From: Eremomyces bilateralis CBS 781.70
Taxonomy: Eukaryota
Strand: one strand, 5' to 3'
Length of the DNA: 64,000 nucleotides
Assembly (NCBI GenBank): GCA_010015585.1
Contig: ML975159.1
Positions 35,601 to 61,099 of this stretch are shown here, in pieces. The notes under the pieces are model-generated. The model did no database searches. It was not told where the DNA came from and was given only the letters and a program-made list of their open reading frames with translations. Positions within the stretch are counted from its first letter, which is position 1; each line of letters opens with the position of its first letter. A program made the position numbers and the translations under genes.

Positions 35601-36250
35601 AACTATACTCTGTAAAGTGTAGTTATTAACTCCAAGAATCCTCAGTTAACTTATTCCTCGGGGTATTCCTCAGGGTTAGGACAGCATCAAAGAGTCGTTC
35701 ATCATATATCTGTGGTGGATCGATTCCGGATTGTTTTTCGTTTACACTCTAAATCCAGGTATTGTCAGTGAGCATAAGACATGTTGGCAGAGGGATGTCC
35801 CACCAAGTACTGACACTTGGCAGACTTCGGCCACAAAGCCACAAGGCTCATTTTACTGAGATCCTGCACGTGACGTCCCCCCTGAACTGGATGCACTGGA
35901 GATGCTTATTCGATGTGCGAAAGTCGAGTAAAGCGCATAAGGTGTGAATAGAAAGTGGATATCTTCTCTATGAACTATGGGATGCATGTTGGTTGGACAT
36001 GCTTCGAGCTGCCAACCATTGAATCCACGATTACATATCTGCATTGGTGATAGAAGAACAAGGGGTGGGAGTCGTAGCAGTGGTTCCCTAGATTCTCAAA
36101 GAGCCAGCGGGTATTTGGCTTCAATCCCTGACACTGAAGAGCTTCAATCGTAAAGTATGTTGTTAAATTGAATCCTCCACTGATTATACACCCGAGTGGT
36201 GCTGAATTCCAGCTCCTTTTTTATAGTATATGATAATTCCCCAACCCTGA

Positions 36251-38733
36251 TCACTGAACGGTCAAAATCGCCGGGCCCGTCAAGTTCGCGCTCGAGGTGC
36301 CCATGTTGATCTCAAACTCACCAGCCTCGACCACATACTGCATCTTGATGTTCCACAGACCCAATTCCTCTACCTTCACCGGGATCTCCACTTCCAGAGA
36401 CTCGCCCGCCTTGATCATCACCTTCTTGAACCCCTTGAGCACCTTGTTCGGCACAGTGATGCTGGCGATGAGATCGCTCACGTACAACTGGACCACTTCC
36501 TGACCATCCCTGCCACTGGCATTCGTCACCGTCACCTTTGCGGTCACGGTATCCCCCTTCTTCGCCGTCTCCTGCGACAGTGTGACGTTCGAGTACACAA
36601 ATGTCGAATAGCTCTTGCCGTAGCCGAACTCGTACAACGGCACCGGCGTCCCCAGAACATACTGATGTCCAAACTCTAGTTCACCAGTCGTCTCATTCAG
36701 CCCTCCGGCCTCCAGCGACCGCCCACTGTTCAGATAATCATAGAAAATCGGCAAGCTCCCGACATCGGTCGGAATGCCCACGCTCAACTTTCCACTGGGG
36801 TTCACGTCCCCGAACAGCACGTCCGCCAACGCATTACCACCCTCTTCTCCAGGGTAGAACTGCTGCACCAGCGCAGCCGCCTTCTTGCTAATCCACGGCT
36901 CGGTGACCGGCTTCCCTGACGAAAACACTACAACCGTCGGCGTATCCGTCTCCAAAATCGCACGCACAAGCGCCGCCTGCGCACCCACAAGGTTCAGCGA
37001 GTTCACGTCAACGTGCTCGCCGGTCGTGGCGTTCAGACCTGCCCAGAGCTCGTTCTGGTCGCGCGACCAGGTGCCGACGACAACGACGGCGATGTCGGCG
37101 GCGCTGGCGACGGAGGCGGCGGCGGGGATGGCCGATTCGTCGTTGGACCAGCGCTCACAACCTTTGGCGTAGGTGACGGTGCCGGTGGAGGCGGATTGGA
37201 TGCCGGCGAGGGGGGTGATGCCGCGGTATTGGGAGAGGTGGACAACGTAATCGCCATACTGGGGAGGGAAGGTTAGCGAAGATGCTCGGGTGGGGTCAGT
37301 GGAGGTACTTACGTTCATGAAACCGTCGGCCATGGGACCGATGACGGCGATGTTTGCGTCCTTTTTGAGAGGGAGGAGGTTGTTGTTGTTCTCAAGCAGA
37401 ACGATGGACTCGGCGTCCAACTCTCGTGCAAGCTTGATATGTTCCGGTGTATGAATCAACTTTGAGGTCTTGTTTGCTGGGGCAGCGAGATATGGGTTCT
37501 CGAACAGGCCCATGGCGAACTTCGCTCGGAGGACGCGCGAGACGGCAGTGTCCACAGTCTTGATATCCAACTCCTTGGACTCGATGAGCGCAGGGATGGT
37601 CTTGAAATTGAAGGATCCGCCACCCATCTCGACGTCATTGCCGGCTGGTAGAACATACTTCGTCACGGCCTCCGAATCGATTGGGTCTGATCGGCACATC
37701 TTGAAGGCGTTGCAGAGACGGTCCGTGCCGCCAGCGTCGGACATGACGAAGTACTGGTAGCCCCATTCTTCGCGGAGGATCTATTCGAGAGCGTTGGTTC
37801 AGCACCACGAGCATATGAGAGCAGATGTTTAATGTCACTCACCTCAGTCATCAGATGATGGTCCATCACTGCCGGGATCCCATCGTATGAATCGTATGCA
37901 CTCATCACCGAGTATGCACCGCCATCCATAATGGTCCTCTTGAACGGCGGCAACCACGTGGTCCGCATCTCCCGCTCACCTCCATGTACCGGCCCCGTAT
38001 TCAATCCCTGTTCCGGCATGCTAAATCCGGCGAAATGCTTCACCATTGCGCTGACATTACCGGCTTGCAGCCCCTTGACATAGGAGTATCCCATCTCTCC
38101 AGATAGATGCACATCCTCGCCGAATGTCTCTTCAACACGCCCGAAGCGTAGCTCCCGAGCAAGGTCGACCACCGGAGCAAAGATCTGGTTGACGCCGAGC
38201 GCGAGCGACTCCTGCGCGATTGCGTAAGCCATCTTCTCGACGAGGTCGGGGTTGAACGAGCAAGCATATGCGATGGGGCTGTTGAAGATCGTGGCATTCT
38301 CGATCAGGAACCCGTGGATGCCTTCCGATTGCACGAAGGCTGGGATCCCGAGGGTGGTGTTGTGCAGAAGGTAATCCTGTCCCTTCTTGACGTTCTCGGC
38401 GATCCATTGCTGCGGAACGGGATAGCCGACGTAGAAGGAACCGGACTTGGAGGCCATGGAGTCGATGAGGCCGGAAACGTTGAAGGCATTGGTGGTGCTG
38501 TTCATCCAGTTGCCAACATCGCCTTGCATGAGTTGAGACACCTTGTCGGAGAGGGTCATGCGGGAAAGGAGGTCCTTGACGCGAGATTCGACATCTGCGG
38601 TAGGGTCCTTGTAAACCACACCATTCGAAGGGTTAGGTTTCCCATGGCCAGGTTGGTTCCCGTGACCACGATCATCGGCTGCCAACACTGATGAACTGGC
38701 AAGGAGAGAAAGGAGGAAGTGTCGTAGAGCCAT
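36251..38733 (-). CDS. Secreted GH3 glycosidase, resembling isoprimeverose-producing oligoxyloglucan hydrolase (IpeA subfamily)
   Basis: Signal peptide MALRHFLLSLLASSSVLA. SQLMQGD, FYVGYPVP, DLARELRFGRVEETFGED, KHFAGF, nucleophile region VMSDAGG, WSRDQNELWAGLNATTGEHVD, C-terminal Fn3-like domain. GH3 is secure; the IpeA subfamily call rests on recalled similarity. Confidence 0.9.
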
Positions 38734-40047
38734 CGTATCGACTGTGCCCCGTAGGCTTCAATTCAGACTTTGGCACTGCTCAAGAACGAGATACCATCAG
38801 CACCATCATCCTGAAGAGGTGCATCCGCCATGTTTATATCCTTTCCAAGGGCAAATTACTAGTTTCCGAGTAACCGGAGTGGAATTACACACATCAGTAA
38901 TGACGTCCTGATGCCAGATGAAACCATGTACCTGCATCTTGGATTTCCTAGCTCTTCCTTCATGGAGACAATTTCATCCCGCCCTACCTCTATTCAATAT
39001 CAGATCGACATATTGAAGCTCGGCGGTCCTCTGCTGACAAGGTCATGGCAGAATGTTCCTGGCCCTTTCCCCGGCATTTTTCCAATTTCCGGGACCCCAG
39101 ATTGAGCCATCATTACAGCCGGCAGGGCATCGTGAACTCTTCATAACCATTTAGCCAAAAGGCAATAGCAATTTACGATGATATCGCTGGCCGGGAGATT
39201 GACATGCGATGAGATGAAATCTCTGGAAATGAGAAGGTTGAAAAAAGCGTCGAAGGTGGCGTAGTAAGACCGAACCATCCCTTGGCGCAGCGCGATGATT
39301 GAGCCGGACGAGGAAATGGCGCCCTCTCGCCTCTCAGCATCCTGGCGATGCTCGCTTGATGGGTGACCCATCCTGCGATTCATTCATTAGGATTTCATCC
39401 ATGCCCCTTGTTCTTCCGCAACTCCACACTCCAACTACTAGGGATAATTTCGGGGATATTTAGGCTAAACGGGATGCACCATGCACCCCGCGACACTGTG
39501 TTTACGCTGACATGACTCCGATCTGGATGCAGCCGATGGTCAAAAATTTGATAGGATCCCATGACAATGAGGAGATGATTCGTCCCCACTTCCTCCGTTA
39601 TCAACGGGCGTTGGCGCGCCATCCCCTTCCTCGGAGCTCTCTATAGCATTTTTGCCGGGACCCGCGCCGGACGCTAGATAGTAGATGAGCTGGCGCCATG
39701 GACTAGATTGCTGACGCCAGTGAGGAAGCTTAAAAGAGCTAGGATGATGGGAAGGATATTCTTCCACGGTTCCACCCCAGATCAGACGTCGGTCTAGCCA
39801 CAAAAATGGGTAAATTCAAAAATGGATATGGGGCTCCATGGGGTGAGCAGAATATCGGAACCGCTACTGGCACGTGGAATGGGGATGAAATGGTTTCTCG
39901 GGAAAGACTGGAGAGTTTGGGACTCGTTGGTCTAGTCTTTATATACCTTGCGACATCCCCAAAGTTTCGCATGGCAAGCTGAACGTCTTGAGTGTGCTGG
40001 AATCTGGAGAACCTTACCAGTGCAGATCAATCCATCAGGTCGCAATC

Positions 40048-41813
40048 ATGGGCAAGTTTTTCATGATCTCGCTCGCGATCTTCGCGGCCACAGGGTATGT
40101 ATCCAACATCCACTCGAGGAGCGTCAGGTCAAACTAACGTTCCCCAGATCCTTCCTGTTCGGCTACGACAGTGGTGTCATGACCGACGTGATCCAATCTC
40201 CCCATTTCCTCACCTACTTCAACACCAGCAAGACCTCTCCCATCATTGGTGCCATCAATTCTACCTTCTCCGGTGGTGCCGTGTTTGGATCCCTCATGGG
40301 AGGGTTCACGATGGATCGGCTCGGCCGAAAATGGACAATCATGATCGGAGCTATGATCTGTTTTGTTGGTGCTATCCTGCAGGCGGCGGCCGTCCACCTC
40401 GCGATGATGTTGGTGGGTAGAATTATGGCGGGATGGGCTGTCGGGTTGATGAGCATGAGTGTACCGGTCTACCAGAGCGAGTGCGCGCATCCAAAGATTC
40501 GAGGTACGGGACACTTGAGGATGATGAGAAATCACCGACTGATTTGACTAGGTCTGGTTGTTGGTATGGCACAACAGATGATAGGAGTCGGTTTCATCGT
40601 CTCGACTTGGATCGGATACGGTGCTGCACATGTTCCGGCGACGAACGCCTTCTCATGGCGGTTTCCCCTGGCTTTCCAGACGGTGCCTTGTGTGATCCTG
40701 CTGATCGGTCTGCCGTTCTTCCCGGAATCACCGCGTCACTTGATGGAGCATGGCGAGGAAGATGAGGCAATGAGAGTGGTATGTATCCTGCGAAAGCCTC
40801 TGCCACCGAACCCAGCTGACGTTCGTCAAAGCTCAACAAGCTGCACTACGACGGGACCAATCAGGAATGGATCCAATCCGAATTCGAAGAGATCCGAAGC
40901 ACTATTAGTGCCGAAAAGGCCATCACTGCTCCTGGATGGTTGGTTATGTTCAAGGTTCCTCAGTGGAGAAACCGTCTGCTTCAGGCGACACTGGTTCAAG
41001 TGTTCACTCAGATGACAGGGTATGTTCTCCCAGCGTACACTTCCCGAAGCTCCGCTAATAGCCCTAGTATCAACGTCATTGGTTATTACCAGACCATCAT
41101 GTACGAATTCCTTGGCATCACTGGTCAGAGGAACTTGCTCGTAACAGGTATCTACAACTGCGTTGGACCTTTCGCCAGTAAGTCCCCTTCAGTCGGTCAT
41201 TTGGAAACAATACTTACACCTTGTAGATTTGATCTTCATCGTCTTTATCCTGGACCGTCTCGGCCGACGAATTCCCCTCCTGGTCGGTACCGTCGCCATC
41301 ACCATCGCCCTCATCTGCGAAGCGGCCATCAACTCCCAGATCCCCCAACCCGTCGACGGAGAAGTCATCGAGGCACATTCGGGCGACGGCAAATCGATCG
41401 CTGGCGTCTTCTTCATCTTCTGCGTCACCGTCATCTTCTCGGGGTCCTTCGGCTCCATCTCCTGGGTCTACATGAGTGAGATCATGCCCATGCAAATCCG
41501 TGGCCGCGGCAGTGCCTTCGCCACCGGAATTGGCAACTGGCTGGTTAGCACCATCTGGAGTCAAGTGTCTCCCATCGGTCTCGGTGCGATTACCTGGAAG
41601 TACTACTTCATCTTCATCGCGTTCAACATCCTGATTACATTCCCCACCATCTATTTCACATTCAAGGAGACGAAGCAGATGTCGTTGGAGGAGATCGATC
41701 TGCTGTTCGGTGGAAGGGCGCTCGGCACACTTCCAGAGGATCTGGATAAGGATGTGGTGAGGGATGGATCGGTGACGTTCGTGGCAGAGAAGGAGACTAA
41801 GTTGGAGGCGTAG
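40048..41813 (+). CDS. MFS sugar porter (SP family), multi-exon
   Basis: MGKFFMISLAIFAATG/SFLFGYDSGV, DRLGRK, GRIMAGWAVG, PVYQSECAHPKIRG, PESPR, QMTG/INVIGYY, DRLGRR, SWVYMSEIMPMQIRGRG, KETKQMSLEEID. Confidence 0.93.
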
Positions 41814-42450
41814 TCTTGCATGCTTTAATCGATTGTTCAGTTGAAGGGGCGTCGATAGTCCGGAGGGAGTTTACCACGGTTTTGAAATCCCAAATATATT
41901 AATCCCAAAAATGGGTGTCATTTCTGAACTCCAAGTACTCTTGTATCCCGGATTCCCCCTTTTCAAGAACGGTAGACTTCTTCAGCATTTGTACCCTTCA
42001 TAATTCTTGCCGACGCAGCGCCTTCTCAACTTTGAGCTACCTAAACGTCGTTGGTAACATGTTGTATAAAGATTCGAATGCTCCAGGGTGGAAACGGTTT
42101 GATCCTAGCCAGGGCAAACATCTTTGCAGGAAGTGGACTAGCATTTTCAAAACTCAAAAACGCCACCAAGTTAAGAATAGTAGATCGGGAACATAAATAA
42201 ATTAGTTGTCCGGTCCCATGGTTTAGACATGAGACTGGCTCCCAAACAATGGCGACCACAGAAGACAGAAACTTTCAGGGGCTGACCTAGAGCGATGTAC
42301 CTCTAGCCATATAGCATTTCTGGAAGCGATATTAAAGAATAAAACCGCAACTGCTCGGAATTAAATCCACCGATGGAATTATCTCGAGAGCCCAGCAGCA
42401 ACAAACATCCTGCCAAAAAAAGGACGGCCCAACAAAAAGCAAAAGAAATG

Positions 42451-42530
42451 TGCACCAGCCGTGACTCGAACACGGTCCCCAAGCAGGCTTCCAATGGGAA
42501 GCTTGGATTCTACCCTTAAACTACTGGTGC
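42451..42530 (-). tRNA. tRNA-Gly(CCC) with 9-nt intron
   Basis: Acceptor stem GCACCAG/CTGGTGC+A. Anticodon arm CAAGC-TTCCCA[TTGGAAGCC]T-GCTTG. T arm CCGTG-TTCGAGT-CACGG. T-rich Pol III terminator downstream. Confidence 0.93.
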
Positions 42531-42748
42531 TGTTCTTACTATGTTAAACTTGTATAACTAATAAACATATTTTATTTTATCAAGAACAGGAAACCCCACC
42601 ATCATATTAAAACCGTCTTTCCAACTTACATCAAACAGTACTCAACCATAGGTTGCCTTTACTCCGAGCGACAACCACATCCCAATTGCAGCGCACATTC
42701 GGCCTTAATACCCACCCCTACTCGAACAAATTATCCAAACACCGCAAA

Positions 42749-43174
42749 ATGACCTCAATCACCCACCAACCAACCATCCACACCTACCACTGCCTCTGTA
42801 CCCAACTCCTCCTCGCAACCCCCCACCCCCTCCCCACCTACCCTCGGCGCGCGCCCCCCTCCCTTGACCGCGCCTACATCCTCCCTCTCTCTCCCTCCTC
42901 ACCAACAACCGACCACCCCACGACATCCCTCGCCCTCCCCGACACCACACCGCAAATCATCCGCCGCGCCGACGGGTTCGAGAGGCGCTATTGGCAGCGC
43001 TGTGGGCGGTGTCGGTTGGTGGTGGGGTATTTTCTAGGTCGGGCGCAGGGGGATGCGGAAGGGGAGAGGGGGGTGGGGGCTGAGGGGCCGTGGGGGGAGG
43101 TGTTGTATGTGTTCCCGGGGGGGTTGGTGGGGACGGAAGAGATGGTGGGAGGGGGGGAGGGGGTGGTGCGGTGA
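42749..43174 (+). CDS. STEEP1/CXorf56 (UPF0428)-like small protein
   Basis: IHTYHCLCTQLLLA, PRRAPPSLDRAYILP, IRRADGFERRYWQRCGRCRLVVGY. Confidence 0.78.
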   Translation: MTSITHQPTIHTYHCLCTQLLLATPHPLPTYPRRAPPSLDRAYILPLSPSSPTTDHPTTSLALPDTTPQIIRRADGFERRYWQRCGRCRLVVGYFLGRAQGDAEGERGVGAEGPWGEVLYVFPGGLVGTEEMVGGGEGVVR

Positions 43175-43939
43175 AGTATGAATGGGTTTGGGAGTGAAGG
43201 GAGATGTGGATAGATGAATGGACGGAGTTCACAATTGGCGTGCTTTACAGCACAATTACGATGCAGGGGGCGAGTCCTCTAGAGGTCAGCAATCCATCAC
43301 CCACGCAAAGATCGCAGCTAATATCCAGTATAGGAGTCCAAAATCGCTATATACCTAAGCAGGGATGAACCGGCTGTCCAGCCAATCCGATACTAGCTAT
43401 TGTCCCGACTCCACCCGATCTATGCCTATGACGAGAAATCCGACGTGCCGTTGAGGGCACGCTCATAAGGGTATCATCCGGACGAGGGTCTCCCGTCCCC
43501 TAATGCCATGGTTCCCGGTCAGCCTATCTGACATCCCCCCATCCGTCCTTCCTTCCCCCCCTTTATTTTTTATTTTCTCTCTCTAAATCATGACTGCATG
43601 GGGAATCGGCTGGGGATCTGTTGAAAATCGTCGCTCATAATCGGTGGTTTTGTGGCTCCGTACGTCGCCATGAGATGATAAGTGTGCAGGTGGGGTTGAA
43701 GCCCATGCGCGAGGGGAATTAACTGGAGGATATGAAAATGCTGGAGCCGAGACGCCGGTGGATGCTAGGTGGAGGTGTTGAAAGAGTTGGGTTATCGGCG
43801 AGGAAGTTGATTGTATTTTGAGGGTAGGTAGGGTGGAGGAGTAGCTCTTGAATGAGCGGAGAGGGAATTCGAAGAAGTGATGGACAGGTTTAAGGGATAG
43901 ATAGGGTTATAGAGAATGGATGAAAGAGAGGAGAAATGT

Positions 43940-46043
43940 TTAACGCACGCCGTTCGCCAGCGCCGGAGGATGGCCGTTGGGTTGCCCCTTCACATCCCCG
44001 TTGGTCAACGTGTCCGAGACGCCGTCAACCGTAGCGATTCCCTTATCGACGGCATGAATCAACTTTTCCATATCTTGAAGTCCCAGGCCGTCGAAGAGGG
44101 GGAAGATGCCCTCGGTCTTGCGGAAGTCGTTGTGGACTATGAAGTGTTAGGTACGGGCAGTGGAGGGAACGAGAGGCTGGGAGAGTGGGGGCCTACCGAT
44201 ATTCACCAGATAGTACGTGTCCATCATGTCCTCGATCACGTAGCGCGACTGGTTCGTGGCGGAATAGCAATTCGCCCAATCCTGTCCAAGCCGGTAGAAT
44301 TCATCTTTCCACGCCAGGAAACTGACCGTCTCGACAATGGTCGGCTGCACGATTTCTTTGCCGGGGAAGACGCCCCAGGTGACCGCGTTCGGCCCATCAC
44401 CCGGCGCATTCGTCTTCAGCTCCCCGGCTTTGTTGACGGCGTAGTAGGTCATGTCGGGATTCCGCTCGATGCGCGTGATCAGCTCGCTAATCATCTCCGG
44501 CGAGACAAAACTCTCGAGGTACGCTTTCTGGAAGACGTAGCCGTTCCGCGGTCCCCAGCCGTAGACAGGATGCGTCGACTTCTCACCATCGACGGGCGGC
44601 TGCGAATTGATGGTGAAGATGCCACGGGTGTTCAGGTCGACGAGTTCTCCTCGCAGAACGTCCGACTCCAGGGACAGCGGATTTTCACTCCACGGCAGAT
44701 GATCGAGCTTGCCCTGCATGTACTTCACGAACAGGTTCGAGATATCCCGGATGGTGGACGGTTCGCCCCAGAGCTTGACGTTCGCCTCATTGGTGCCCTT
44801 CAGGCCGATGCCGTAGGCGTCCAGCTCGCCGAACGCGGGGGAGCGGGAGTCGCCCCAGCGGCCGTTGGGAAATTCATCCCAGTCTTGCGTGCGGACGACA
44901 TAGGATCGGTTGCGATTGCGCCAGAAGATGGGGCGGACGTTTTCTTCGCGGCGTTTGAGGCCTTTGGAGGGGCGCCAGGGGAGGGGTTTCTCAAGAGGGC
45001 TCTCGAGGTCGGGAACGAGGTTGAGGTCTTCTAGGACCATGCGGGTAGCCTGGGCGAGGTTCATGGTATAGCTAGATGATGTTAGTATGATTTTGGCAGG
45101 ATGAAGGGTTCCCATACAAATGCAGGTGGTTGATGCCGCCAGCCAGAAGACGTTTGCACATTTCCACAATCAACTCCCGTCCGACGTCTCGGACAGCAGC
45201 ATCGTCATTCTTGACTGGCTCCAACGCCTCCATCCACGCCTTTGGTACGTTGCATTCAGTCCAATTCGCTCGGCGGATAAACGCACCGTACGTATGAATC
45301 GGCATGATTCCTGGGATAATAGGCACGGTAATGCCAGCCTCCCGGACTTTCCGTAGCCAGTCGAGGAAAATGTCGGTATCGTAAAACATCTGCGTGATCA
45401 CAAAAGTGCCACCCGCATCGACCTTCTCCTTCAGATGGCGGATGAGTTCGTCCGTGTTCTTGTTGTCGTCGCACCCCTCAGAATAACCCGCCACACCGAT
45501 ATCGAAGTGATCCCCGTATTGGCTCCGGATGTACTTCACCAGGTCCCGCGCATATTGGAATCCGCCTTGCGATGCCACCCACTTTTCGTTCTCTCGGGGC
45601 GGGTCGCCGCGGAGGGCAAGAATGTTCGTGCATCCCGAGTTATAGGCTTCTTTTAGCGCGTCGTCGATTTTTGATTTCTCCATGTCGGTGCACGTGAGGT
45701 GCATGCATGTCTCCAGTCCATACACGGACTGAGCCACCTTGACCATCTCGCAGGTCAACCCTGAGTGTCGCCCACCAGCACCCCATGTGACGTCGATGAA
45801 TGTTGGTCCAAGGTCATGCATGCGATCCATGCCTAAGAACGGTCAGTGGAATGTCGACAGTTAGCTCGTACTAAGGAACCCACGATCATAGAGATTTTGA
45901 ACACCCTATCCAACATGTTAGGTACAGCGAAAATATGATCATGTACCGTGACGTACCTGTGCAGTTTTCGGCGGGAAGAATTCAAACGAAATGGACGGCC
46001 GTCCAGCCTCTTCGGCCGCCCGTAGTCTTTCGGAGATATGCAT
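43940..46043 (-). CDS. MET13: Methylenetetrahydrofolate reductase (Met13-type), multi-exon
   Basis: SFEFFPPKTAQ/GVQNLYD (22-nt microexon), FIDVTWGAGG, TCMHLTCT, NILALRGDPP, ITQMFYD, PIIPGIMPI. Regulatory domain WDEFPNGRWGDSRSPAFG and NAVTWGVFPGKEIVQPT. Confidence 0.93.
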
Positions 46044-47549
46044 TTTGAGAAAGATCCCTCAGCGGCGCCGTCGGTCGTTCGCGGCGAAATTGGAACGTCG
46101 TATATATCAATGCTTGAGTTCTGCGAACTTTGTCAGTTCCTCCGAACTCGGCTTGAACCGCAGCAAAGTAGAACCCACCACGCCAACATATACTGAGGGA
46201 ATACCGAACCCTCCACGGCCCAATGAACGTTTTCCTGCTATTCGAGATAGCGTATGCGAGCCCAGCGGTCTGCCAAATGCCGTTGCATGAACCACCGGCG
46301 CTCGAAATGTCAAACAATAGCAAGGAGGGGGGACGAAAAGGAGCGATATGCGTTAGTTGAAGTACTTAATTCATGTTACGTCTGTGGAGAGGAAAGCTTT
46401 CACGAGAATAGAGGGGCCGGCGATGGCCCAATAAGGAATCGCGCCAGTCAAACCGCACAAGAAACTCCCCGCAATCGCCTGTGGCTCTCATCAGTCATGG
46501 CGTTTTCTTGGTGTGCAACCAATTTGCCGTTCCGTGTCCGCCGCAATTCGGATGCCGTGATGCATGAACCGTTGCCAGCTCTGACATCTTCCGCGGAGTT
46601 TCGATTGTATATGCCGAATTTCCCCCATATAAAATACGATGCGGTGTGAGATTGCATTCAGCCAGGAAGTCTCTTGGATTACGCCGGTTCTTCAGTGAAG
46701 GATCCGGAGCATCCATATTGAACGAGGAATCCTCCAGGTTTTGGTGACGGATAATGAACTTGGTTGTTCTATCTTGAACATGGCTTACGGGATTGAGATC
46801 ATGGATGCTTACCGTGGTTGGCACAGCCTTTCCACCAACGTCGTTGCGCTGCAGAACCATACACCGGGATCCAACTTGCATTCCCGATGCGTCGTATGCT
46901 CGTCAACTACGCAAACAAGATGACTTGTGCCTATCAGGAAGTAGATCAATCTGCATATGTGCCTATGGCAACATTCATGCAGTGAAGCAGCTTCGGGCTT
47001 GGGCTTGGGCTTGAGTTCATGCAATCTACCTCCCTTCATGTCCAATCCCCCACCACGTTTCTGCCCTCATCGCCACAGCAGTTCTAGCCATGCGGTACCT
47101 GTACATCGTTGTACGATGTTGTCATAAACCTCTTCCTTCCCTCATCTGACCGCAATACATCACCTGTCTCTGGAACGATGAGTCTCACTTCTTCCGCTTA
47201 GGTATACCTTAGGCCATATTGGACCGCATCTATTCTCATCGTGGCCTCGTCCCAGATGCTTGAGAACTGATCTCCCGGCGCGGGACGGTCGGATATTTAT
47301 GGAAGTGATGCCGATGGGTCTCGGAAAGGAAGCAGTTCCCGTCCTTCATATTGGAAGAAATTTTGTGGTTAGAAATAGCCCTGTCGGCCATGTGGGAGTT
47401 CCTTCTCTTAAGTTCCAACGGGCAGTGGGCGAATAATACCATGTACCATGGGAGGACCGGATCCAATGTTGGCAGAATATATTCCGATGCACTGTGAAAA
47501 TCTTTTCCTCAAATCCGCTTAATACTCCATTACCCTGGATATTTGCCAT

Positions 47550-47599
47550 CTGGGGATATCTGGGGATCTGGGGTGTTTTCTACCTATCTTGGTCTGGGG
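47550..47599 (+). promoter_or_regulatory. Cluster of four CTGGGG (CreA/Cre1 SYGGRG-type) sites upstream of GH31
   Basis: CTGGGG at 47550, 47560, 47568 and 47594. Confidence 0.45.
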
Positions 47600-47976
47600 A
47601 TAAAGGCGGATGAATTGTATCGTCTCGCAGAACTGCTTTTGTCAATAGATCTCCTTGATATGACGACGATAAGATTCCGGGGTATCCGGCACCCAAGCCG
47701 TTAAATCATCCTCATCAATATTGCTCATTTCTATCGATCAACAGAACAATTGATCCTTTGGTGGTCGACCTACTCTAGCGCTGATGAGATGTTTGGCTCG
47801 ACAGTCGCTCACCACGCGAAGATCGGCGGGCATCGTCCCCTATGTAGCCGTCCTCCGTGCTCGAAATAAATCAGATCGAACGACCGGATATTAGTTATTT
47901 CACTAGTTATGTATTTCCCTATTTAACGATCCAACTTCTAAGCTGACTAGCGATGACACCCAAGAACTCGCTTGGT

Positions 47977-48032
47977 CCCCGGCTAAAGGGTTAATGTCTA
48001 GACCCCCCACCTCCAGTCGCATTTAGCCGGGG
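47977..48032. promoter_or_regulatory. Inverted pair of XlnR/Xyr1-type sites (CGGCTAAA) upstream of GH31
   Basis: CCCCGGCTAAA (47977-47987) and TTTAGCCGGGG (48022-48032) form a perfect 11-bp inverted repeat with a 34-bp spacer, about 200 bp upstream of the ATG. Confidence 0.6.
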
Positions 48033-48235
48033 CGGGGACGTTCCGCGTCGAGAAAACGTAGCCTCAACAGCTGAACAGCACTACGTATTGCAATTGCGGG
48101 TTCAATGGGGATTTCAAGCAAAGGGAACGCGATGGGTCTGGCGTACATAAACCAGCTCATGGCCAGGGACGTGGTAGTTCATGCTGTGTCCTCACTTAGC
48201 GAAACATTGTATGCAAATTGCCTGATTCATTCAAG

Positions 48236-50651
48236 ATGAGGTTCCGCGATGGTACGTGATCCAATTCCTCTGTACAATCCCATTCTAACCCACCGTTCAA
48301 GGCATGTGGCTTACAGCCGCCGATAAAACAATCCAATACGCCGAAGACATCTACTCTATCAACCAATCTGGCGATGAACGGTCTCTGGAGTTACTCTGTC
48401 CGACAAAGCGCATCCGATCTCGTGGTGACACTCTCAACTGTCCCACCGTCACCATCAAGCTCGAGGCGGTTATCGATGGCGTCATCTCCGTCGAAGCAAC
48501 CCATTGGGCCGGCCAACGTCGTCTCGGTCCCGACTTCGAGCTGTTCCCGGATGGCAAGCCGGAATCCGCGGCGAGCATCACCACAGGCGAGAAGGGCACG
48601 GCGTTGACCTCCGGGGGCCTCACCGCCACCGTCAGCCCGGATCCGCATGAGTTTGAGATTCGGTTCAGTGGGCATGATGGGAGGGAGGTGACAAGCCTGT
48701 TGAACAGGAGTGTTGGGTTTGCGTATACCCCCGCGACCGGGAACATGAAGGTCGTCGAGGATATGCGGAAAACGCAGCATTATATGTTCACACAGACAGA
48801 GCTCGGGGTGGGCGAGTCGGTCCATGGACTGGGAGAGAGGTTTGGAGCGTTCAATAAGGTTGGACAGCATGTTGAGGTTTGGAACGAGGATGGGTGAGTT
48901 TATGTTGACGCATGAAATACCCATGGGCGCTGACAATATCAAGTGGCACGTCCTCCGACCAAGCATACAAGAACATCTCCTTCTGGCTCAGCTCCCGCGG
49001 CTACGGTGTCTTCATCGACACTCCTGAACACATCGATCTCGAAATCGGGAGCGAACGAAGCTGCAGAGTGCAGACGGCAGTGGAGTCCCAGCGTCTCAAA
49101 TGGTACCTCATATACGGGCCAACGCCCAAAGAGGTTTTGACCAAATACACCATCCTCACCGGGAAATCCGGCAAAGTCCCCGCCTGGAGCTTCGGACTTT
49201 GGCTCACCACCTCCTTCACCACCAACTACGACGAAGCCACCGTCACCGACTGGCTCAGCCAGATGCAAACCCGCAAGATCCCCCTCGAAGTTTTCCACTA
49301 CGACTGCTTCTGGCTCCGCGCCTTCCACTGGTGCGACTTCGTCTTCTCCAAGGACCACTTCCCCGACCCCAAAGGCTCCATGACGCGCCTCAAGTCCTCC
49401 AAACTCGCCAACAAGGTCTGCGTCTGGATCAACCCCTACCTCGGCCAAGCCTCCCCCGTCTTCGCCGAAGCCGCCGAGAAAGGCTACCTCGTCAAGCGCC
49501 TCAACGGTGACGTCTGGCAATGGGACCTCTGGCAAGCCGGCATGGCCCTCGTTGACTTCACCAACCCGGCCGCCCGCAAATGGTACGTCTCCTGCCTCGA
49601 GCAACTCTTCGACACTGGCGTCGACTGCCTCAAGACCGACTTCGGCGAGCGCATCCCCTCGGCCGACGTCCAGTGGCACGACCCCACCGTCGACCCCAAG
49701 AAAATGCACAACTACTACTCCTTCATGTTCAACCAACTCGCCTACGAGGCCCTCCAGAACCGCTTCGGCGCCGACCAAGCCGTCCTCTTCGCCCGCTCCG
49801 CCACCGCCGGCACCCAGCGCTTTCCCCTCTGTTGGGGCGGTGACTGCGAGTCCACCGCCCCGGCCCTCGCGGAATCCATCCGCGGCGGCCTGTCCATCGG
49901 CCTGTCGGGCTTCTCCTTCTGGTCGTGCGACATCGGTGGGTTCGAGGGCAACCCCGCGCCGTGGATCTACAAGCGGTGGGTGGCGTTCGGACTGTTCTGC
50001 TCACACTCGCGTCTGCACGGGAGCAACTCGTACCGGGTGCCGTGGCTCATCGACGGAGACTCACAGGAGCCGGAGAACGCCACCGACGTGGTGCGGCATT
50101 TCGTGCGGGTGAAGCGGCGGTTGATGCCGTATTTGTTCGCGGAGGCGAAGGAGGCGGCGGAGAATGGATGGCCGATGAGCTTAAGGGCGATGGGCCTGGA
50201 GTTCCCGGAGGATCAGACGGCGTGGTTCTGTGATCGCCAGTTCATGGTAGGGAAGAGCCTGTTGGTGGCGCCGGTGTTCACCGAGGAGGGCGATGTGGAG
50301 TTCTATCTGCCCGAGGGCAAGTGGACGAGCTGGTGGGATGGCCATGTTGAGGTTGGCCCGAAGTGGGTGAAGGAGAAGCACGGGTTCCTGACGCTGCCGG
50401 TGTACGTTCGGGAGCGGTCGGTGTTGGTGCTTGGGAGTGAGGATGAGGCGGAGAAGGGAGAGGGCTTCGGGTATGACTGGGTGAAGCAGGGCGCGGAGGT
50501 GAAGTTATATCACACGCAGGCAGGAGACAGCTTCACGGTTGTTGATCGTGAAGGGAAGGATGTTGTGACGCTGGAGGTTGGCGCTGGTAACACTGTCAGC
50601 GGCCTGGACAAGATCGAAGGAACGTGGTCTTCGACCGTTGCAGTTAGATGA
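48236..50651 (+). CDS. Intracellular GH31 alpha-xylosidase (YicI/AxyA-like), 3 exons
   Basis: MRFRD/GMW start with no signal peptide. GLGERFG, WNEDG/GTSSDQAYKNI, WSFGLWLTTSFTTNYDE, catalytic KTDFGERIP and WGGDC, WSCDIGGFEG, SHSRLHGSNSYRVPW. Confidence 0.93.
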
Positions 50652-50785: not shown

Positions 50786-51825
50786 TCACTGCTTCTTCGC
50801 CTCCCTCTCCCTCTTCCTCAGCGCCCTCTTCCTCACCGCCTCATGCATCGTCTTATTCTGCGCCAACACCACCCCACTCCTCGCCCCTACCAAAGTCTCA
50901 ATCCCCCACTGCATCACCGCATGGCTCCAATATGGCGTCATCTGATACGCCGACCCCTGGCTCCCCCCTGCCCTCCCGATGCTCCGCAACGTCGCGCGCA
51001 CAAACGTCCGCGTGCTCGGCACCATCATCGTCGTCCGCCGCAGCTTCGACATCGCGCTCACCACCAGGTGGCTCTGCACGCACTGCACCGTCACGCCGGC
51101 CGGGGCCAGCTCGGCGCCCAGCGCGGCCGACCACGCTTGAAGGAACGCTTTGCTACCGGAGTAGGTGGCGAGGAGCGGGGTGGGGAAGACGCCGGCGAAC
51201 GACGCCATGGTGAGGATGAGGCCGCGTTTGCGCTGGACCATGGCAGGGGTGAGGGCCTGGGTGACGCGGAGGGTGGCGTGGCAGTTGATGTTGATGATGT
51301 TCTCTAGTTCGTCGCGATCGGTCTCAATGAAGGGGACGGGGATGGAGTGGGATTGGCCGACATTGTTGACGAGGATGGCGACGTCGAGGGGAGCGGCTTG
51401 GGCGGCGAGTGCGCGGTAGTCGGCGTCGGTGGCAGCCGAGAAGTCGATGGCGAGAGTAGCGGTTTGGACATTATAGGTGCGAGCGATGTCGGTGGCCAGG
51501 TCGTCGAGCTTGGATTTGGTACGAGAGACGAGGAAGACGTTGAAGCCGGCTTTGGCGAGCTGGTTGGCGAATTCTTTGCCGATGCCGTCGGAGGCTCCGG
51601 TGATAACTGCCCAGCTGCCTTTGGGTCCGAACGTTCGTAGCTGGAGGTGGTGTTAGCTCATGATGCGTTTCAGAGACCTTTAGAGCTACTCACGGAAGTT
51701 CCTGGGAGGATAAACAGGTCACCTAGCAGGCGAAGGTAGCTCAGAATCTTCGCGGAGATGTACACGAGCCCAATGACCGCGAAGACCTGGATTGCCGGAC
51801 TCGACGCATACTCAATGAAATCCAT
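50786..51825 (-). CDS. IFA38: Very-long-chain 3-oxoacyl-CoA reductase (SDR), 2 exons
   Basis: [61 protein letters not shown], and a basic C-terminus ending KKQ. Confidence 0.92.
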
Positions 51826-52746: not shown

Positions 52747-54169
<1,423 letters not shown>

Positions 54170-57292: not shown

Positions 57293-59148
57293 AGTTCAAC
57301 CCCCTGCTTCCTGCGCAACCCCCAAGCTGCGCAGTTCCACCAATTCGCTCAAGAGCAGCATCTTTTATACTACCTACATTGAAAACGCGTTCAATCTACC
57401 AAAACCGTGTACTTTTTAAAATTAATTCCATTTCCTAATATGGCAACTCATGATGAACGAATATCAGGTGCTTTACACGCAATTTCTAGTGGCGAGACCA
57501 ACTCCATCAGAGATACAGCCAGACTGTTTGAAGTTAACGAATCTACCCTCCGCCTTCGCCTTTCCGGCTCAAAATCTCGGTCTATCGCCCAACAGGATGC
57601 CCAACGCCTTACACCGGCTCAGGAGGCCTTTCTGACCGATTGGATCTTGGATTCAGATGCACAAGGATTTGCACCAACCCACGCACGCGTGCGGGAAATG
57701 ACATCGCGAATCCTCGACCTACAGACCGAAGAAACCCCCCTCGGCAAGAATTGGGTTACCGGTTTCCTCCGCCGTAACCCACGCGTTAAACCTTGCTTAG
57801 GCAAGAAGCTCGATGCTGTACGACATAAGGCTTCAACGGAAGAGGTGATCACGCGGTTTTACGAGCACTTTCGTACGGTGGTAGCCGACCATGACGTTTC
57901 CGCAGACGATACATACAATATGGATGAGGTTGGGGTCGGAATTGGTATAGGAGCGAATTCTATTGTGATCGCAGACTCACAGAAGTCCGTTACGACATTG
58001 GTGGGACAGGAGACGCGTGAATGGATATCAATTGTTGAGACAGTCTCTGCGACTGGGCGGGCGCTGAACCCGGCCGTGATCCAGAAAGGCGCTTCCCTCC
58101 AGAGCTCCTGGTTTCCGGAAAACGCGCCAAATTGGTATTACGACGTGTCGCCGAACGGATGGACCTCGAATGAGATCGCTGTAAAGTGGTTGCGCGAGGT
58201 ATTCCTCAAGGAAACCGCGACGAATCGCCAATACCGGATATTGGTACTCGACGGGCATGGGAGCCACGCGACGATCGATTTTCTGTATTTATGCAGGATT
58301 AGCAAGGTGGTGGTAGTCTTCCTACCTCCTCATACCTCCCATATCCTTCAACCGCTGGATCTTGCCTGTTTTTCACCGCTGAAACGATTCTACAAGGCTC
58401 TTCTTCGAAATGCAGCTTATATCGATAACGCGATACCGATTAAGCGCAGGAAATTCATCGTATTATACGCAAAAGCCCGTGACAATAGGCTCTCTCCTCG
58501 TACGATTCGCTCAGGATGGAAAGCTGCAGGTCTCGTCCCATTTAACGTGGAGAAGGGCCTCCAGAACCGGTTCGTTAACCGGTCGGTCCTACCACCGCCG
58601 CCATCACCCTTATCACCCACATCACCGACCCCACGGCCTACCGGGACGCGTCAGACGATACTTTTCTCTACGCCCGTCAAGCCTAAACAGGTTTACAGTA
58701 CCTTAAAGGCAATGTCGGGCAATAATCGCGTGGGCAAAGGCACGCAGAGGATTCTCAGAAAGGCGGCGAAGGCTATCGGCATATTTCAGACCCGCCAGGC
58801 TCTATCTGATGCCAAAATCGCGCATCTAGAAGCTCGCCTAGAGACTGCTCTAGCACCTAAAAGGAAAAAGAAGGTCCAGGTAGACCTGAATGAGCGATTC
58901 GCACGGGTTGAGGAGATCAAGGCTGCTCAGGTCCAGGCCGCGACTGCGGTAGAGGACTACCAACGCAAAAACACGGAAGTTGACCTCGTAAAAAGGTCGA
59001 AGGATCTCTCTACACTTAATTCTACCTCTTGCTTAAACGAATTTCAAATATAATGTACTTTGGTAGAGATATAGAGTCTCAAAGAGGTTTTGCCCAAATG
59101 GTGGAACTGCGCAGCTGGGGGGTTGCGCAGGAAGCAGGGGGTTGAACT
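57293..59148 (+). mobile_element. Intact pogo/Fot1-family DNA transposon (1856 bp)
   Basis: ~50-bp TIRs (agttcaaccccctgcttcctgcgcaaccccc[a/c]agctgcgcagttccacca) with 1 mismatch. TA target-site duplication at 57291-57292 and 59149-59150. Confidence 0.95.
57440..59053 (+). CDS. pogo/Fot1 transposase (HTH_psq, CENP-B HTH, DDE_1)
   Basis: Uninterrupted 537-aa ORF with LGKNWVTGFLRR, YNMDEVG, NGWTSNE, LVLDGHGSH and PPHTSHILQPLD. Confidence 0.93.
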   Translation: MATHDERISGALHAISSGETNSIRDTARLFEVNESTLRLRLSGSKSRSIAQQDAQRLTPAQEAFLTDWILDSDAQGFAPTHARVREMTSRILDLQTEETPLGKNWVTGFLRRNPRVKPCLGKKLDAVRHKASTEEVITRFYEHFRTVVADHDVSADDTYNMDEVGVGIGIGANSIVIADSQKSVTTLVGQETREWISIVETVSATGRALNPAVIQKGASLQSSWFPENAPNWYYDVSPNGWTSNEIAVKWLREVFLKETATNRQYRILVLDGHGSHATIDFLYLCRISKVVVVFLPPHTSHILQPLDLACFSPLKRFYKALLRNAAYIDNAIPIKRRKFIVLYAKARDNRLSPRTIRSGWKAAGLVPFNVEKGLQNRFVNRSVLPPPPSPLSPTSPTPRPTGTRQTILFSTPVKPKQVYSTLKAMSGNNRVGKGTQRILRKAAKAIGIFQTRQALSDAKIAHLEARLETALAPKRKKKVQVDLNERFARVEEIKAAQVQAATAVEDYQRKNTEVDLVKRSKDLSTLNSTSCLNEFQI

Positions 59149-60562: not shown

Positions 60563-61099
60563 ATATTTTCCAATTAAGCAATCAAAAAAGTAGACTGAAT
60601 TTGCGTATGTACGTGTTTTTCAGCGTATCTCAAGATACAGTGTATGGCGATCGAATTTAGTGATTTTCGGGGGTGTGCCCAGAGTCGTGATGACTGCATA
60701 CGATCATTAGGGTCTGAGCGCTTCGGTTTGGATCACAATTCACAAAACTTAATGAGATTGGCGGAACAATCTGATCGGAACGCCTCATCACTTGTGATTC
60801 GACGACATGCTTCGGCAACAGCCATAGTTCGGTCCAACCGACCAGCTTAGCGCCTGCTTAGCGCCAGAGCACGGTCAAATCGCAGACACGAGGCTGAGAC
60901 CGTGGACAGGGCACTGTGGAGTGACCGGAATATACGCAGCCTTGGGCCAGAACTTATAATGGCCTTTCTCTGCCGCTACGGTCGTCGTCCTTGTTCTTCA
61001 AGGGCAACTCAACTCTCGCTTCTTCGTTAACGTAGGCAAACCGCACAACCTGTCATTCCACCCGCCCATCTGCCGGCCTGGCGCGCTTCCCTCCACACC

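What the first reader, a model, noticed from the sequence alone, without database searches (positions are those of the whole stretch)
36251..50651. Candidate fungal isoprimeverose utilisation cluster: secreted IpeA-like GH3, sugar porter and cytosolic GH31 alpha-xylosidase
Seen: a signal-peptide GH3 is divergent from a sugar porter, and a signal-less YicI-type GH31 lies 6.4 kb beyond the porter, with tRNA-Gly, STEEP1-like and MET13 in between. Established: Aspergillus oryzae IpeA (GH3) releases isoprimeverose (Xyl-a1,6-Glc) from xyloglucan oligosaccharides, intracellular GH31 AxyA and E. coli YicI cleave it, and Lactobacillus pentosus couples uptake and hydrolysis through XylP/XylQ. From memory, this GH3 resembles IpeA (QLxQGD, FYVGYP, WSRDQxELW). 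Inference: the three genes form a release-import-cleave pathway, a eukaryotic analogue of xylPQ.
Basis: partly seen in the sequence, partly recalled or inferred. Interest (0 to 1): 0.85.

Follow-up and report, generated by a model that had tools for sequence, protein, structure and literature searches.

The report
Fungal isoprimeverose release, import, cleavage cluster
A fungus keeps three genes together: a secreted enzyme that cuts a xylose-glucose disaccharide off plant xyloglucan, a sugar transporter, and an intracellular enzyme that splits that disaccharide; the same trio lies side by side in many other fungi, which points to the still unknown fungal transporter for this sugar.

Summary
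A secreted-type GH3 (36251-38733, minus strand) lies head-to-head with a sugar porter (40048-41813). A GH31 without a signal peptide (48236-50651) lies 6.4 kb further on. tRNA-Gly(CCC), a STEEP1-like gene and MTHFR lie between. Spliced transcript contigs validate all three gene models.

The GH3 is an IpeA orthologue. It is 67% identical to A. oryzae IpeA. It scores 1148 bits against IpeA, versus 442 for the best other solved GH3. Q58, Y89, D300 and E524 are kept. The GH31 is 47% identical and colinear with E. coli YicI, with its catalytic Asp residues kept.

The linkage recurs. Porter, GH3 and GH31 carry consecutive tags or accessions in 7 named species of two classes. They are also adjacent on metagenome contig L010. 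Pairs are adjacent in Leotiomycetes and Sordariales. Linkage is not universal: 6 of 8 metagenomic GH3 organisms with long flanks lack both partners.

Best reading (0.65): a release-import-cleave pathway. It works like bacterial xylPQ/yicJI but uses a Sugar Porter, not a GPH carrier. The porter's substrate and co-induction remain untested.

The parts
36251..38733 (-). IpeA-orthologous GH3 (predicted secreted isoprimeverose-producing oligoxyloglucan hydrolase). Exons 38733-37843, 37780-37313 and 37258-36251. The transcript contig runs from 36143, where it has a poly-A-type loose end, to 39176.
38734..40047 (.). Divergent GH3/porter promoter spacer of 1314 bp, with three GGCTAR (XlnR-type) sites at 39151, 39463 and 39794.
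   Evidence: Weak: 6% of windows of this size in the 64 kb hold 3 or more sites.
40048..41813 (+). Sugar Porter family MFS transporter, 504 aa by RNA. Exons 40048-40093, 40147-40501, 40550-40777, 40831-41018, 41067-41177 and 41227-41813. Candidate isoprimeverose importer.
42450..42530 (-). tRNA-Gly(CCC) with a 9-nt intron. Intervening gene, not part of the pathway.
   Evidence: Rfam found nothing.
42611..43174 (+). STEEP1-domain ORF. Intervening gene, not part of the pathway.
   Evidence: A transcript contig starts near 42620.
44147..45842 (-). Methylenetetrahydrofolate reductase (MET13-type) ORF pieces. RNA shows introns at 44137-44196, 45072-45117, 45832-45882 and 45905-45955. Intervening gene.
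46900..48235 (.). Region upstream of the GH31, with GGCTAR sites at 47084, 47981 and 48023. It is transcribed in the RNA contig from 46442.
48236..50651 (+). YicI/AxyA-type GH31 alpha-xylosidase without a signal peptide (predicted cytosolic). Exons 48236-48250, 48301-48892 and 48943-50651.

Best explanation
The three genes are a loosened copy of a conserved three-gene locus of Pezizomycotina for using the xyloglucan building block isoprimeverose (Xyl-alpha-1,6-Glc).

Step 2 (inferred from gene neighbourhood only): the Sugar Porter encoded head-to-head with the GH3 imports the disaccharide, probably as a proton symporter.

Step 3 (inferred from homology to YicI and from the subfamily shared with AxyA): the signal-less GH31 hydrolyses it in the cytosol to xylose and glucose.

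In this genome a tRNA gene, a STEEP1-like gene and MTHFR have come to lie between the porter and the GH31. In related genomes the three genes are immediate neighbours.
For: GH3 is an IpeA orthologue.
- Against solved structures it scores 1148 bits to IpeA (5yot) over residues 41-787. The best non-IpeA structure scores 442 bits.
- It is 67.1% identical to A. oryzae RIB40 IpeA (P0402) over 751 positions.
- IpeA positions Q58, Y89, D300 and E524 sit in QLIQGD, FYVGYP, TSDAG and TGEHVD. All four are kept in the window protein. The roles of these residues are recalled, not read.

GH31 is YicI-type.
- It scores 757 bits to YicI over the full length; the next structure scores 340 bits.
- It is 47% identical to YicI over 758 positions, starting at residue 1 of both.
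- YicI D416, D482 and the C307-F308 pair are kept (roles recalled).
- A. oryzae AxyA is intracellular, belongs to GH31 subfamily 3, and has a Km of 0.2 mM for isoprimeverose (PMC10792220, Discussion read).

Linkage in named genomes.
- Consecutive tags: Malbranchea VTO42DRAFT_4131/4132/4133 (porter, GH3, GH31); Helicocarpus AJ79_02060/61/62.
- Consecutive accessions in 5 of 5 species checked for the trio: Zopfia, Aaosphaeria, Corynespora, Pseudovirgaria, Lophiotrema.
- Consecutive accessions in 2 of 2 Sordariales checked for porter plus GH31: Podospora appendiculata, Bombardia.
- Further adjacent pairs by tag: Polytolypa and Chlorociboria (GH3-porter); Hymenoscyphus albidus and Thermocarpiscus (porter-GH31); Humicola (GH31-GH3).
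- By my reading of the tables, the same contig holds porter and GH3 in 21 of 29 species found in both lists, porter and GH31 in 22 of 25, and GH3 and GH31 in 16 of 20.
- At least two gene orders occur (GH3-porter-GH31 and porter-GH3-GH31), so linkage persists through rearrangement.

Other support.
- Metagenome contig L010 carries GH31, GH3 and porter within 8.1 kb.
- All three window genes are covered by correctly spliced transcript contigs of one run.
- The porter family is 64-72% identical across fungal classes.
- Its A. niger relative An02g08230 rises from 1.0 to 105 RPKM on straw and falls to 0.8 after glucose (PMC3415456, table row).
Against: - No transport, enzyme or induction data exist for this organism.
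- The porter is an ordinary Sugar Porter whose nearest solved relatives are monosaccharide carriers: STP10, GlcP, GLUTs and XylE at 80-143 bits.
- Linkage is not universal. Among 8 distinct metagenomic GH3 organisms with at least 3.7 kb on both sides, 6 have neither partner within reach: L001/2, L003, L014/15, L016/21, L017 and L023/24.
- In Botrytis cinerea the GH3 and the porter relative lie on different chromosomes (tags).
- None of the 24 Eurotiales porter rows in the tree is shown to be linked.
- In the window itself three unrelated genes separate the porter from the GH31.
- GGCTAR enrichment in the promoters is weak and was looked for after the fact.
Confidence: 0.65

Rival explanations
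1. The cluster is real, but the porter carries a monosaccharide (xylose or glucose) or another hemicellulose-derived sugar. Isoprimeverose reaches the cytosolic GH31 through a different carrier, and clustering reflects shared regulation only.
For: The nearest solved relatives are monosaccharide carriers. Automatic names in the family are 'high-affinity glucose transporter' or 'STL1'. The A. niger relative is induced on whole straw, which is not specific to xyloglucan.
Against: The porter is adjacent to the cytosolic GH31 even where the GH3 is not part of the group: Podospora, Bombardia, Thermocarpiscus, Hymenoscyphus albidus. A cytosolic alpha-xylosidase needs an imported alpha-xyloside. Identity of 64-72% across classes suggests one conserved, specific task.
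Confidence: 0.2
2. The porter imports larger xyloglucan oligosaccharides, which are then trimmed inside the cell. The GH3 is not the supplier of its substrate.
For: Some bacteria import large xyloglucan oligosaccharides (abstracts of PMC4780118 and PMC8576529, in the listings). In 20 of 80 bacterial YicI-type loci a GH3 lies within 5 kb.
Against: The GH3 has a signal-peptide-like N-terminus and is an orthologue of the extracellular IpeA. No cytosolic beta-glucosidase or beta-galactosidase is in the cluster. AxyA prefers isoprimeverose to oligosaccharides (PMC10792220).
Confidence: 0.06
3. The porter is mainly a sensor (transceptor) that reports isoprimeverose or xylose and so induces hemicellulase genes.
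For: Nothing found here. The idea rests on recalled knowledge that some fungal sugar porters have signalling roles.
Against: Nothing in the sequence sets it apart from working carriers. It gives a full-length Sugar_tr match.
Confidence: 0.05
4. The neighbourhood in this window is chance, and the three genes are functionally unrelated.
For: Three unrelated genes lie between the porter and the GH31. Many IpeA-type GH3 loci lack the partners.
Against: Consecutive accessions or tags for the trio in 7 named species on contigs of up to 4.7 Mb, plus pairs in others. Chance cannot give this.
Confidence: 0.02

Closest known systems
Aspergillus oryzae xyloglucan-oligosaccharide system: IpeA (secreted GH3) and AxyA (intracellular GH31 subfamily 3)
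   Same: The GH3 is 67% identical to IpeA, with the catalytic residues and the xylose-subsite residues kept. The GH31 is of the YicI type and lacks a signal peptide, as is described for AxyA.
   Different: None of the A. oryzae papers I could read mentions a transporter or a gene cluster: 0 occurrences of 'transporter' in PMC10792220, PMC11975219 and PMC6325624. Here a porter is physically tied to both enzymes. Identity to AxyA itself was not measured.
Lactobacillus pentosus xylP-xylQ and E. coli yicJ-yicI (xyloside carrier plus GH31 alpha-xylosidase)
   Same: The logic is the same: import an alpha-xyloside and split it with a cytosolic YicI-type GH31. In E. coli K-12, yicJ ('putative xyloside transporter') lies 9 bp upstream of yicI on the same strand. 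The window GH31 is 47% identical to YicI.
   Different: The bacterial carriers belong to the GPH family: Pfam MFS_2 for YicJ. The fungal one belongs to the Sugar Porter family (Sugar_tr) and shows no pairwise similarity to YicJ, E = 2.7. The fungal locus adds a secreted enzyme that makes the disaccharide. Its genes are separate transcription units, not an operon. The roles of XylP and XylQ are recalled, not read here.
Fungal carrier-plus-hydrolase pairs for disaccharides, such as LAC12-LAC4 in Kluyveromyces and the MAL loci (recalled)
   Same: A divergently transcribed sugar porter and a glycosidase for one disaccharide.
   Different: The sugar is different (an alpha-xylosyl-glucose). There are three components, with an extracellular producer. 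No regulator gene was found in the 64 kb.
Trichoderma reesei transporter Tr69957
   Same: A lignocellulose-induced fungal sugar porter that can carry a disaccharide (cellobiose) as well as xylose and mannose (PMC5879799, abstract and passages).
   Different: The paper places it with maltose permeases. Its neighbourhood to GH31 gene 69944 was only my recollection, and neither paper I opened states it. Nothing here shows kinship to the window's porter.

Membership tests
IpeA-type GH3 isoprimeverose-producing oligoxyloglucan hydrolase (EC 3.2.1.120) | Three-domain GH3 architecture (N-terminal barrel, C-terminal sandwich, Fn3-like) | tested here: met
   PF00933, PF01915 and PF14310 are all above their cut-offs.
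IpeA-type GH3 isoprimeverose-producing oligoxyloglucan hydrolase (EC 3.2.1.120) | Closer to characterised IpeA than to any other characterised GH3 | tested here: met
   1148 bits to 5yot against 442 bits to the best non-IpeA structure. 67.1% identity to A. oryzae RIB40 IpeA.
IpeA-type GH3 isoprimeverose-producing oligoxyloglucan hydrolase (EC 3.2.1.120) | Catalytic nucleophile Asp300 and acid/base Glu524; xylose-subsite residues Gln58 and Tyr89 (roles recalled from the 2019 structure paper, which I could not read) | tested here: met
   The four positions hold Q, Y, D and E in P0402, and the aligned window residues are identical. The E524A-type mutant entry 7eap differs from 5yot at exactly that Glu.
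IpeA-type GH3 isoprimeverose-producing oligoxyloglucan hydrolase (EC 3.2.1.120) | Secretion signal | tested here: inconclusive
   The N-terminus looks like a signal peptide by eye. No predictor was available.
IpeA-type GH3 isoprimeverose-producing oligoxyloglucan hydrolase (EC 3.2.1.120) | Releases isoprimeverose from XXXG-type oligosaccharides | not testable with these tools
   Needs an enzyme assay.
YicI/AxyA-type GH31 alpha-xylosidase (GH31 subfamily 3) | GH31 architecture and best match to YicI over the full length | tested here: met
   PF13802, PF01055 and PF21365. 757 bits to YicI against 340 bits to the next structure. 47% identity. That YicI belongs to subfamily 3 is recalled; the classification paper was not held.
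YicI/AxyA-type GH31 alpha-xylosidase (GH31 subfamily 3) | Catalytic Asp416 and Asp482, and the Cys307-Phe308 pair tied to xyloside specificity (roles recalled) | tested here: met
   KTD, GGD and DCFW are conserved at those YicI positions.
YicI/AxyA-type GH31 alpha-xylosidase (GH31 subfamily 3) | No signal peptide (intracellular) | tested here: met
   The alignment starts at residue 1 of both proteins, with no N-terminal extension.
YicI/AxyA-type GH31 alpha-xylosidase (GH31 subfamily 3) | Direct orthology to A. oryzae AxyA | not tested
No A. oryzae protein is among the 120 listed hits.
Sugar Porter family (Pfam Sugar_tr) | Full-length Sugar_tr match | tested here: met
   295 bits, profile positions 2-452 of 452. 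It aligns to STP10, GlcP, GLUTs and XylE over almost the whole length.
Sugar Porter family (Pfam Sugar_tr) | Twelve membrane helices | tested here: inconclusive
   My crude hydropathy scan gave 10 peaks. No topology predictor was run.
GPH-family xyloside carriers (XylP, YicJ) | Pfam MFS_2 and similarity to YicJ | tested here: not met
   YicJ matches MFS_2 and the window porter does not. BLASTP E = 2.7. So the porter may work like XylP but is not a member.
Conserved catabolic gene cluster | The same genes are neighbours in distant genomes | tested here: met
   Exceptions.
Conserved catabolic gene cluster | Co-induction by the substrate | not tested
   Only one run was found, of unknown condition. 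It shows that all three genes are transcribed and spliced, nothing more.

The most novel reading that the evidence does not exclude
This porter family is the first eukaryotic isoprimeverose/proton symporter, a new specificity within the Sugar Porter family. With the IpeA-type GH3 and the YicI-type GH31 it forms an old 'xyloglucan disaccharide utilisation locus', widespread in Pezizomycotina, that has been kept together through rearrangements. The locus may have moved between fungal classes: Onygenales porters nest among Dothideomycete ones, and the Helicocarpus GH31 is 84-87% identical to that of Aspergillus section Nigri. Its GH31 shares about 50% identity with bacterial enzymes.
Probability: 0.35. 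Interest if true: 0.75.

Novelty: new variant of a known kind. Interest (0 to 1): 0.62.

Why it matters
A. oryzae work established an extracellular producer of isoprimeverose (IpeA) and an intracellular enzyme with high affinity for it (AxyA). That implies an importer nobody has named. In the open library, 15 papers hold both 'isoprimeverose' and 'transporter', and none concerns a fungal carrier. Searches also found none.

The conserved neighbourhood singles out one orphan Sugar Porter family as the candidate and makes the question testable with a simple yeast uptake experiment. It also gives a compact three-gene module for engineering yeasts or fungi to use xyloglucan-derived sugars. The module may be missed in Aspergillus, where the enzymes were studied, because no Eurotiales porter was shown to be linked to either enzyme here.

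Tried and rejected
- No whole genome is held for the window, so paralogues and the rest of the xyloglucan toolkit could not be surveyed.
- Earlier findings of this scan: three look-ups, nothing to show.
- Papers not held: JBC 2016 ipeA paper and the GH31 subfamily paper. The AxyA (2020) and IpeA structure (2019) papers were not looked up; I assumed these subscription-journal papers are not held. Gene identifiers of ipeA and axyA, and residue roles, therefore rest on recall or are missing.
- Lead that T. reesei transporter Tr69957 neighbours GH31 gene 69944: not stated in PMC5879799 or PMC3526510. The transporter is described as maltose-permease-like. Dropped.
- One search was a badly framed paper search (any 2 of 5 common terms) and gave nothing useful.
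- Rfam found no tRNA at 42450-42530. ARAGORN with introns allowed did.
- RNA evidence: no RNA holder is listed on record. The one run found, X1, is labelled 'RNA?' as a guess. Its contigs are spliced at GT..AG sites on the correct strands and carry a poly-A-type end, so I treat them as transcripts. Its depths cannot rank genes and the growth condition is unknown.
- GGCTAR (XlnR-type) sites: 44 in the window against 42 expected. There are 3 in each of the two promoter regions, and 3 of the 4 sites of locus L010 fall in its two cluster spacers. This is suggestive only.
- Pfam over the rest of the window found no further xyloglucan enzyme and no Zn2Cys6 regulator.
- In 80 bacterial YicI-type loci, neither a YicJ-like nor a Sugar Porter gene lies within 5 kb at E below 1e-8.
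- No structure prediction or complex prediction was run. Neither would decide the porter's substrate.


Full report
**What is there**

The window is fungal. Its three proteins match, letter for letter after splicing, database proteins that the sources name as from Eremomyces bilateralis CBS 781.70: P0001, P0121 and, except for one intron, P0241.

A single public run (X1, coded; labelled 'RNA?' as a guess) holds contigs 100% alike to the window. These contigs skip short GT..AG or CT..AC stretches on the expected strands and carry a poly-A-type loose end at 36143. I therefore read them as transcripts. They fix the gene models:

- GH3: minus strand, exons 38733-37843, 37780-37313 and 37258-36251.
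- Porter: plus strand, six exons from 40048 to 41813.
- GH31: plus strand, exons 48236-48250, 48301-48892 and 48943-50651.

The deposited porter model keeps the 48-nt intron at 41019-41066 as 16 extra residues. By RNA the protein has 504 residues.

Between the porter and the GH31 lie three unrelated genes:

- A tRNA-Gly(CCC) with a 9-nt intron at 42450-42530. Rfam found nothing there.
- A STEEP1-domain gene.
- An MTHFR gene.

**The GH3**

It has the GH3 N-terminal, C-terminal and Fn3-like domains. Against all solved structures its best matches are the A. oryzae isoprimeverose-producing enzyme entries, at 1148 bits over residues 41-787. The best structure that is not IpeA scores 442 bits. It is 67.1% identical to A. 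oryzae RIB40 IpeA, P0402, found as a member of a 90% cluster. A Phaeoacremonium enzyme 65% identical to IpeA has been shown to produce isoprimeverose (PMC6325624, passage), so this level of identity is within the range of proven function.

I recalled from the 2019 structure paper, which I could not open, that Asp300 and Glu524 are catalytic and that Gln58 and Tyr89 hold the xylose. In P0402 those positions do hold D, E, Q and Y, inside TSDAG, TGEHVD, QLIQGD and FYVGYP. The window protein keeps all four. The N-terminus looks like a signal peptide by eye; no predictor was run. All 120 listed relatives are 55% or more identical over the query, mostly 63-69%. They come from Dothideomycetes, Leotiomycetes, Sordariomycetes, Eurotiomycetes and Lipomyces.

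**The GH31**

It has the three GH31 domains. It matches E. coli YicI over its whole length at 757 bits, against 340 bits for the next structure. It is 47% identical to YicI over 758 positions, beginning at residue 1 of both, so there is no signal peptide. YicI Asp416, Asp482 and the Cys307-Phe308 pair (roles recalled) are conserved. Structures of the other alpha-xylosidase types score far lower: MeXyl31 155 bits, CjXyl31A 113 bits, and a 759-residue 'alpha-xylosidase' 82 bits.

PMC10792220 (abstract, introduction and Discussion read) states the following. AxyA has no signal sequence. It belongs to GH31 subfamily 3. [quoted passage not shown] That YicI is also in subfamily 3 is my recollection. 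The identity of the window protein to AxyA itself could not be measured.

**The porter**

It gives a full-length Sugar_tr match. Its nearest solved relatives are monosaccharide carriers at 80-143 bits. The language-model atlas gives only general names such as 'general substrate transporter' and 'STL1'. Nothing in the sequence tells the substrate.

**Linkage elsewhere: the decisive test available**

Locus tags and accession numbers returned with the homologue lists show the three families side by side in other genomes.

- Trio by consecutive tags: Malbranchea cinnamomea VTO42DRAFT_4131 (porter), 4132 (GH3), 4133 (GH31), on a 21-kb contig. Helicocarpus griseus AJ79_02060, 02061 and 02062.
- Trio by consecutive GenBank accessions, 5 of 5 species checked: Zopfia rhizophila, Aaosphaeria arxii, Corynespora cassiicola, Pseudovirgaria hyperparasitica and Lophiotrema nucula, on contigs of 1.4 to 4.7 Mb.
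- Porter plus GH31, 2 of 2 Sordariales checked: Podospora appendiculata and Bombardia bombarda.
- Adjacent pairs by tag: Polytolypa and Chlorociboria (GH3-porter); Hymenoscyphus albidus and Thermocarpiscus (porter-GH31); Humicola hyalothermophila (GH31-GH3).

I also compared the 'longest contig' column for species that occur in two lists, leaving out the window's own species. This is my own reading of the tables; the column is exact only for single-member clusters. Porter and GH3 share a contig in 21 of 29 species, porter and GH31 in 22 of 25, and GH3 and GH31 in 16 of 20.

Gene order differs. It is GH3-porter-GH31 in Zopfia, Pseudovirgaria, Corynespora and Lophiotrema. It is porter-GH3-GH31 in Aaosphaeria, Malbranchea, Helicocarpus and locus L010. 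Linkage has therefore survived rearrangement. The window has the first order, with three genes inserted.

**Evidence against universality**

A metagenome scan with the GH3 gave 27 loci falling into 19 distinct GH3 sequences. Of 8 organisms with at least 3.7 kb on both sides:

- One has the full trio (L009/L010/L012).
- One has the GH31 only (L007/L011).
- Six have neither partner within up to 10 kb (L001/2, L003, L014/15, L016/21, L017, L023/24). Their flanks hold unrelated genes: Sds3, catalase, a non-sugar MFS and others.

In Botrytis cinerea the GH3 and the porter relative carry tags of different chromosomes.

In a FastTree of 114 porter relatives the rows largely follow taxonomy. The tree took 113 of the 120 listed plus 3 cluster members, after dropping lengths outside 430-560; the window row was replaced by the RNA model. 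All 15 rows linked to both enzymes fall in one half, which holds Dothideomycetes and Onygenales. Linked pairs also occur in the Leotiomycete and Sordariomycete parts. None of the 24 Eurotiales rows is known to be linked. That may be why the cluster is not mentioned in the A. oryzae papers I could read.

**Regulation**

No condition-resolved data exist for this organism.

- GGCTAR sites (the XlnR-type motif, recalled) number 3 in the GH3-porter spacer and 3 upstream of the GH31. Only 6% of windows of equal size reach 3.
- In L010, 3 of 4 sites lie in the two cluster spacers. This is weak support found after the fact.
- The A. niger relative An02g08230 (65% identical) is strongly induced on straw and repressed by glucose (table rows in PMC3415456 and PMC5598271).
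- A. oryzae genes for xyloglucan-oligosaccharide degradation are induced by those oligosaccharides (PMC11975219, passage).

**Mechanism and comparison**

The best reading has three steps: extracellular release of isoprimeverose by the GH3, import by the porter, and cytosolic cleavage by the GH31.

This works like E. coli yicJ-yicI, which are adjacent, 9 bp apart and on the same strand, and like L. pentosus xylPQ (recalled). But the fungal carrier is not a member of that carrier family. YicJ is MFS_2, the window porter is Sugar_tr, and the two show no pairwise similarity.

The 80 bacterial loci most similar to the fungal GH31 are 45-54% identical to it. None has a YicJ-like or Sugar Porter gene within 5 kb. 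Twenty have a GH3 of about 30% identity.

**Novelty**

The enzymes are known kinds. The conserved three-gene arrangement, and the candidate carrier, did not appear in any paper found. That library is open-access only, and subscription papers could not be read, including the AxyA and IpeA structure papers and a 2021 review on Aspergillus xyloglucan degradation. I rate it a new variant of a known kind. It would not astonish a specialist, but it turns an open question (how isoprimeverose enters fungal cells) into a direct experiment.

Noticed in passing
window 41019-41066: The deposited porter protein (P0241, 520 aa) keeps a 48-nt in-frame intron as 16 extra residues. The transcript contig splices it out, giving 504 aa and restoring the usual TGIN motif of sugar porters.
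   Followed up: yes
window 46442-48235: The transcript contig that covers the GH31 starts about 1.8 kb upstream of its ATG with no joint in between. This is either a very long leader or an unannotated overlapping transcript. ORFs there have no Pfam match and none was examined further.
   Followed up: no
window 53065-53923 (-): A galactose-1-phosphate uridylyltransferase (GAL7-type) gene lies 2.4 kb beyond the GH31, after an SDR gene (50786-51652) and an Erg28 gene. Galactose is a xyloglucan side-chain sugar, but this is probably coincidence.
   Followed up: no
window 57383-59050 (+) and 61031-63997 (+): An uninterrupted 556-aa ORF with Tc5-type HTH and DDE_1 transposase domains, followed by a gene with NACHT/NPHP3_N and ankyrin repeats (NLR-like).
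   Followed up: no
window 23388-26192 (+): A 935-aa open frame with no Pfam match at E of 1e-5 or better.
   Followed up: no
proteins P0407, P0139, P0408; porter tree rows P0242, P0264, P0289: The Helicocarpus (Onygenales) GH31 is 84-87% identical to those of Aspergillus section Nigri and sits in their 90% cluster. The window protein is 69% identical to the same Aspergillus protein. The Onygenales porters nest among Dothideomycete porters, away from Eurotiales. This suggests possible transfer of the locus or parts of it between classes.
   Followed up: partly
loci L029-L108: Bacterial YicI-type proteins from Actinomycetota, Chloroflexota, Armatimonadota and Bacillota are 45-54% identical to the fungal GH31. 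In 20 of 80 of these loci a GH3 lies within 5 kb, so the GH31-GH3 association also exists in bacteria.
   Followed up: partly
locus L017 13296-15907: Next to an IpeA-like GH3 lies a second GH3 carrying a PA14 domain (a tandem of GH3 genes), with no porter or GH31 nearby.
   Followed up: no
loci L001, L017, L021: In three unlinked metagenomic organisms the IpeA-like GH3 lies just downstream of an Sds3-like gene. This is a different, conserved neighbourhood for the same enzyme.
   Followed up: no
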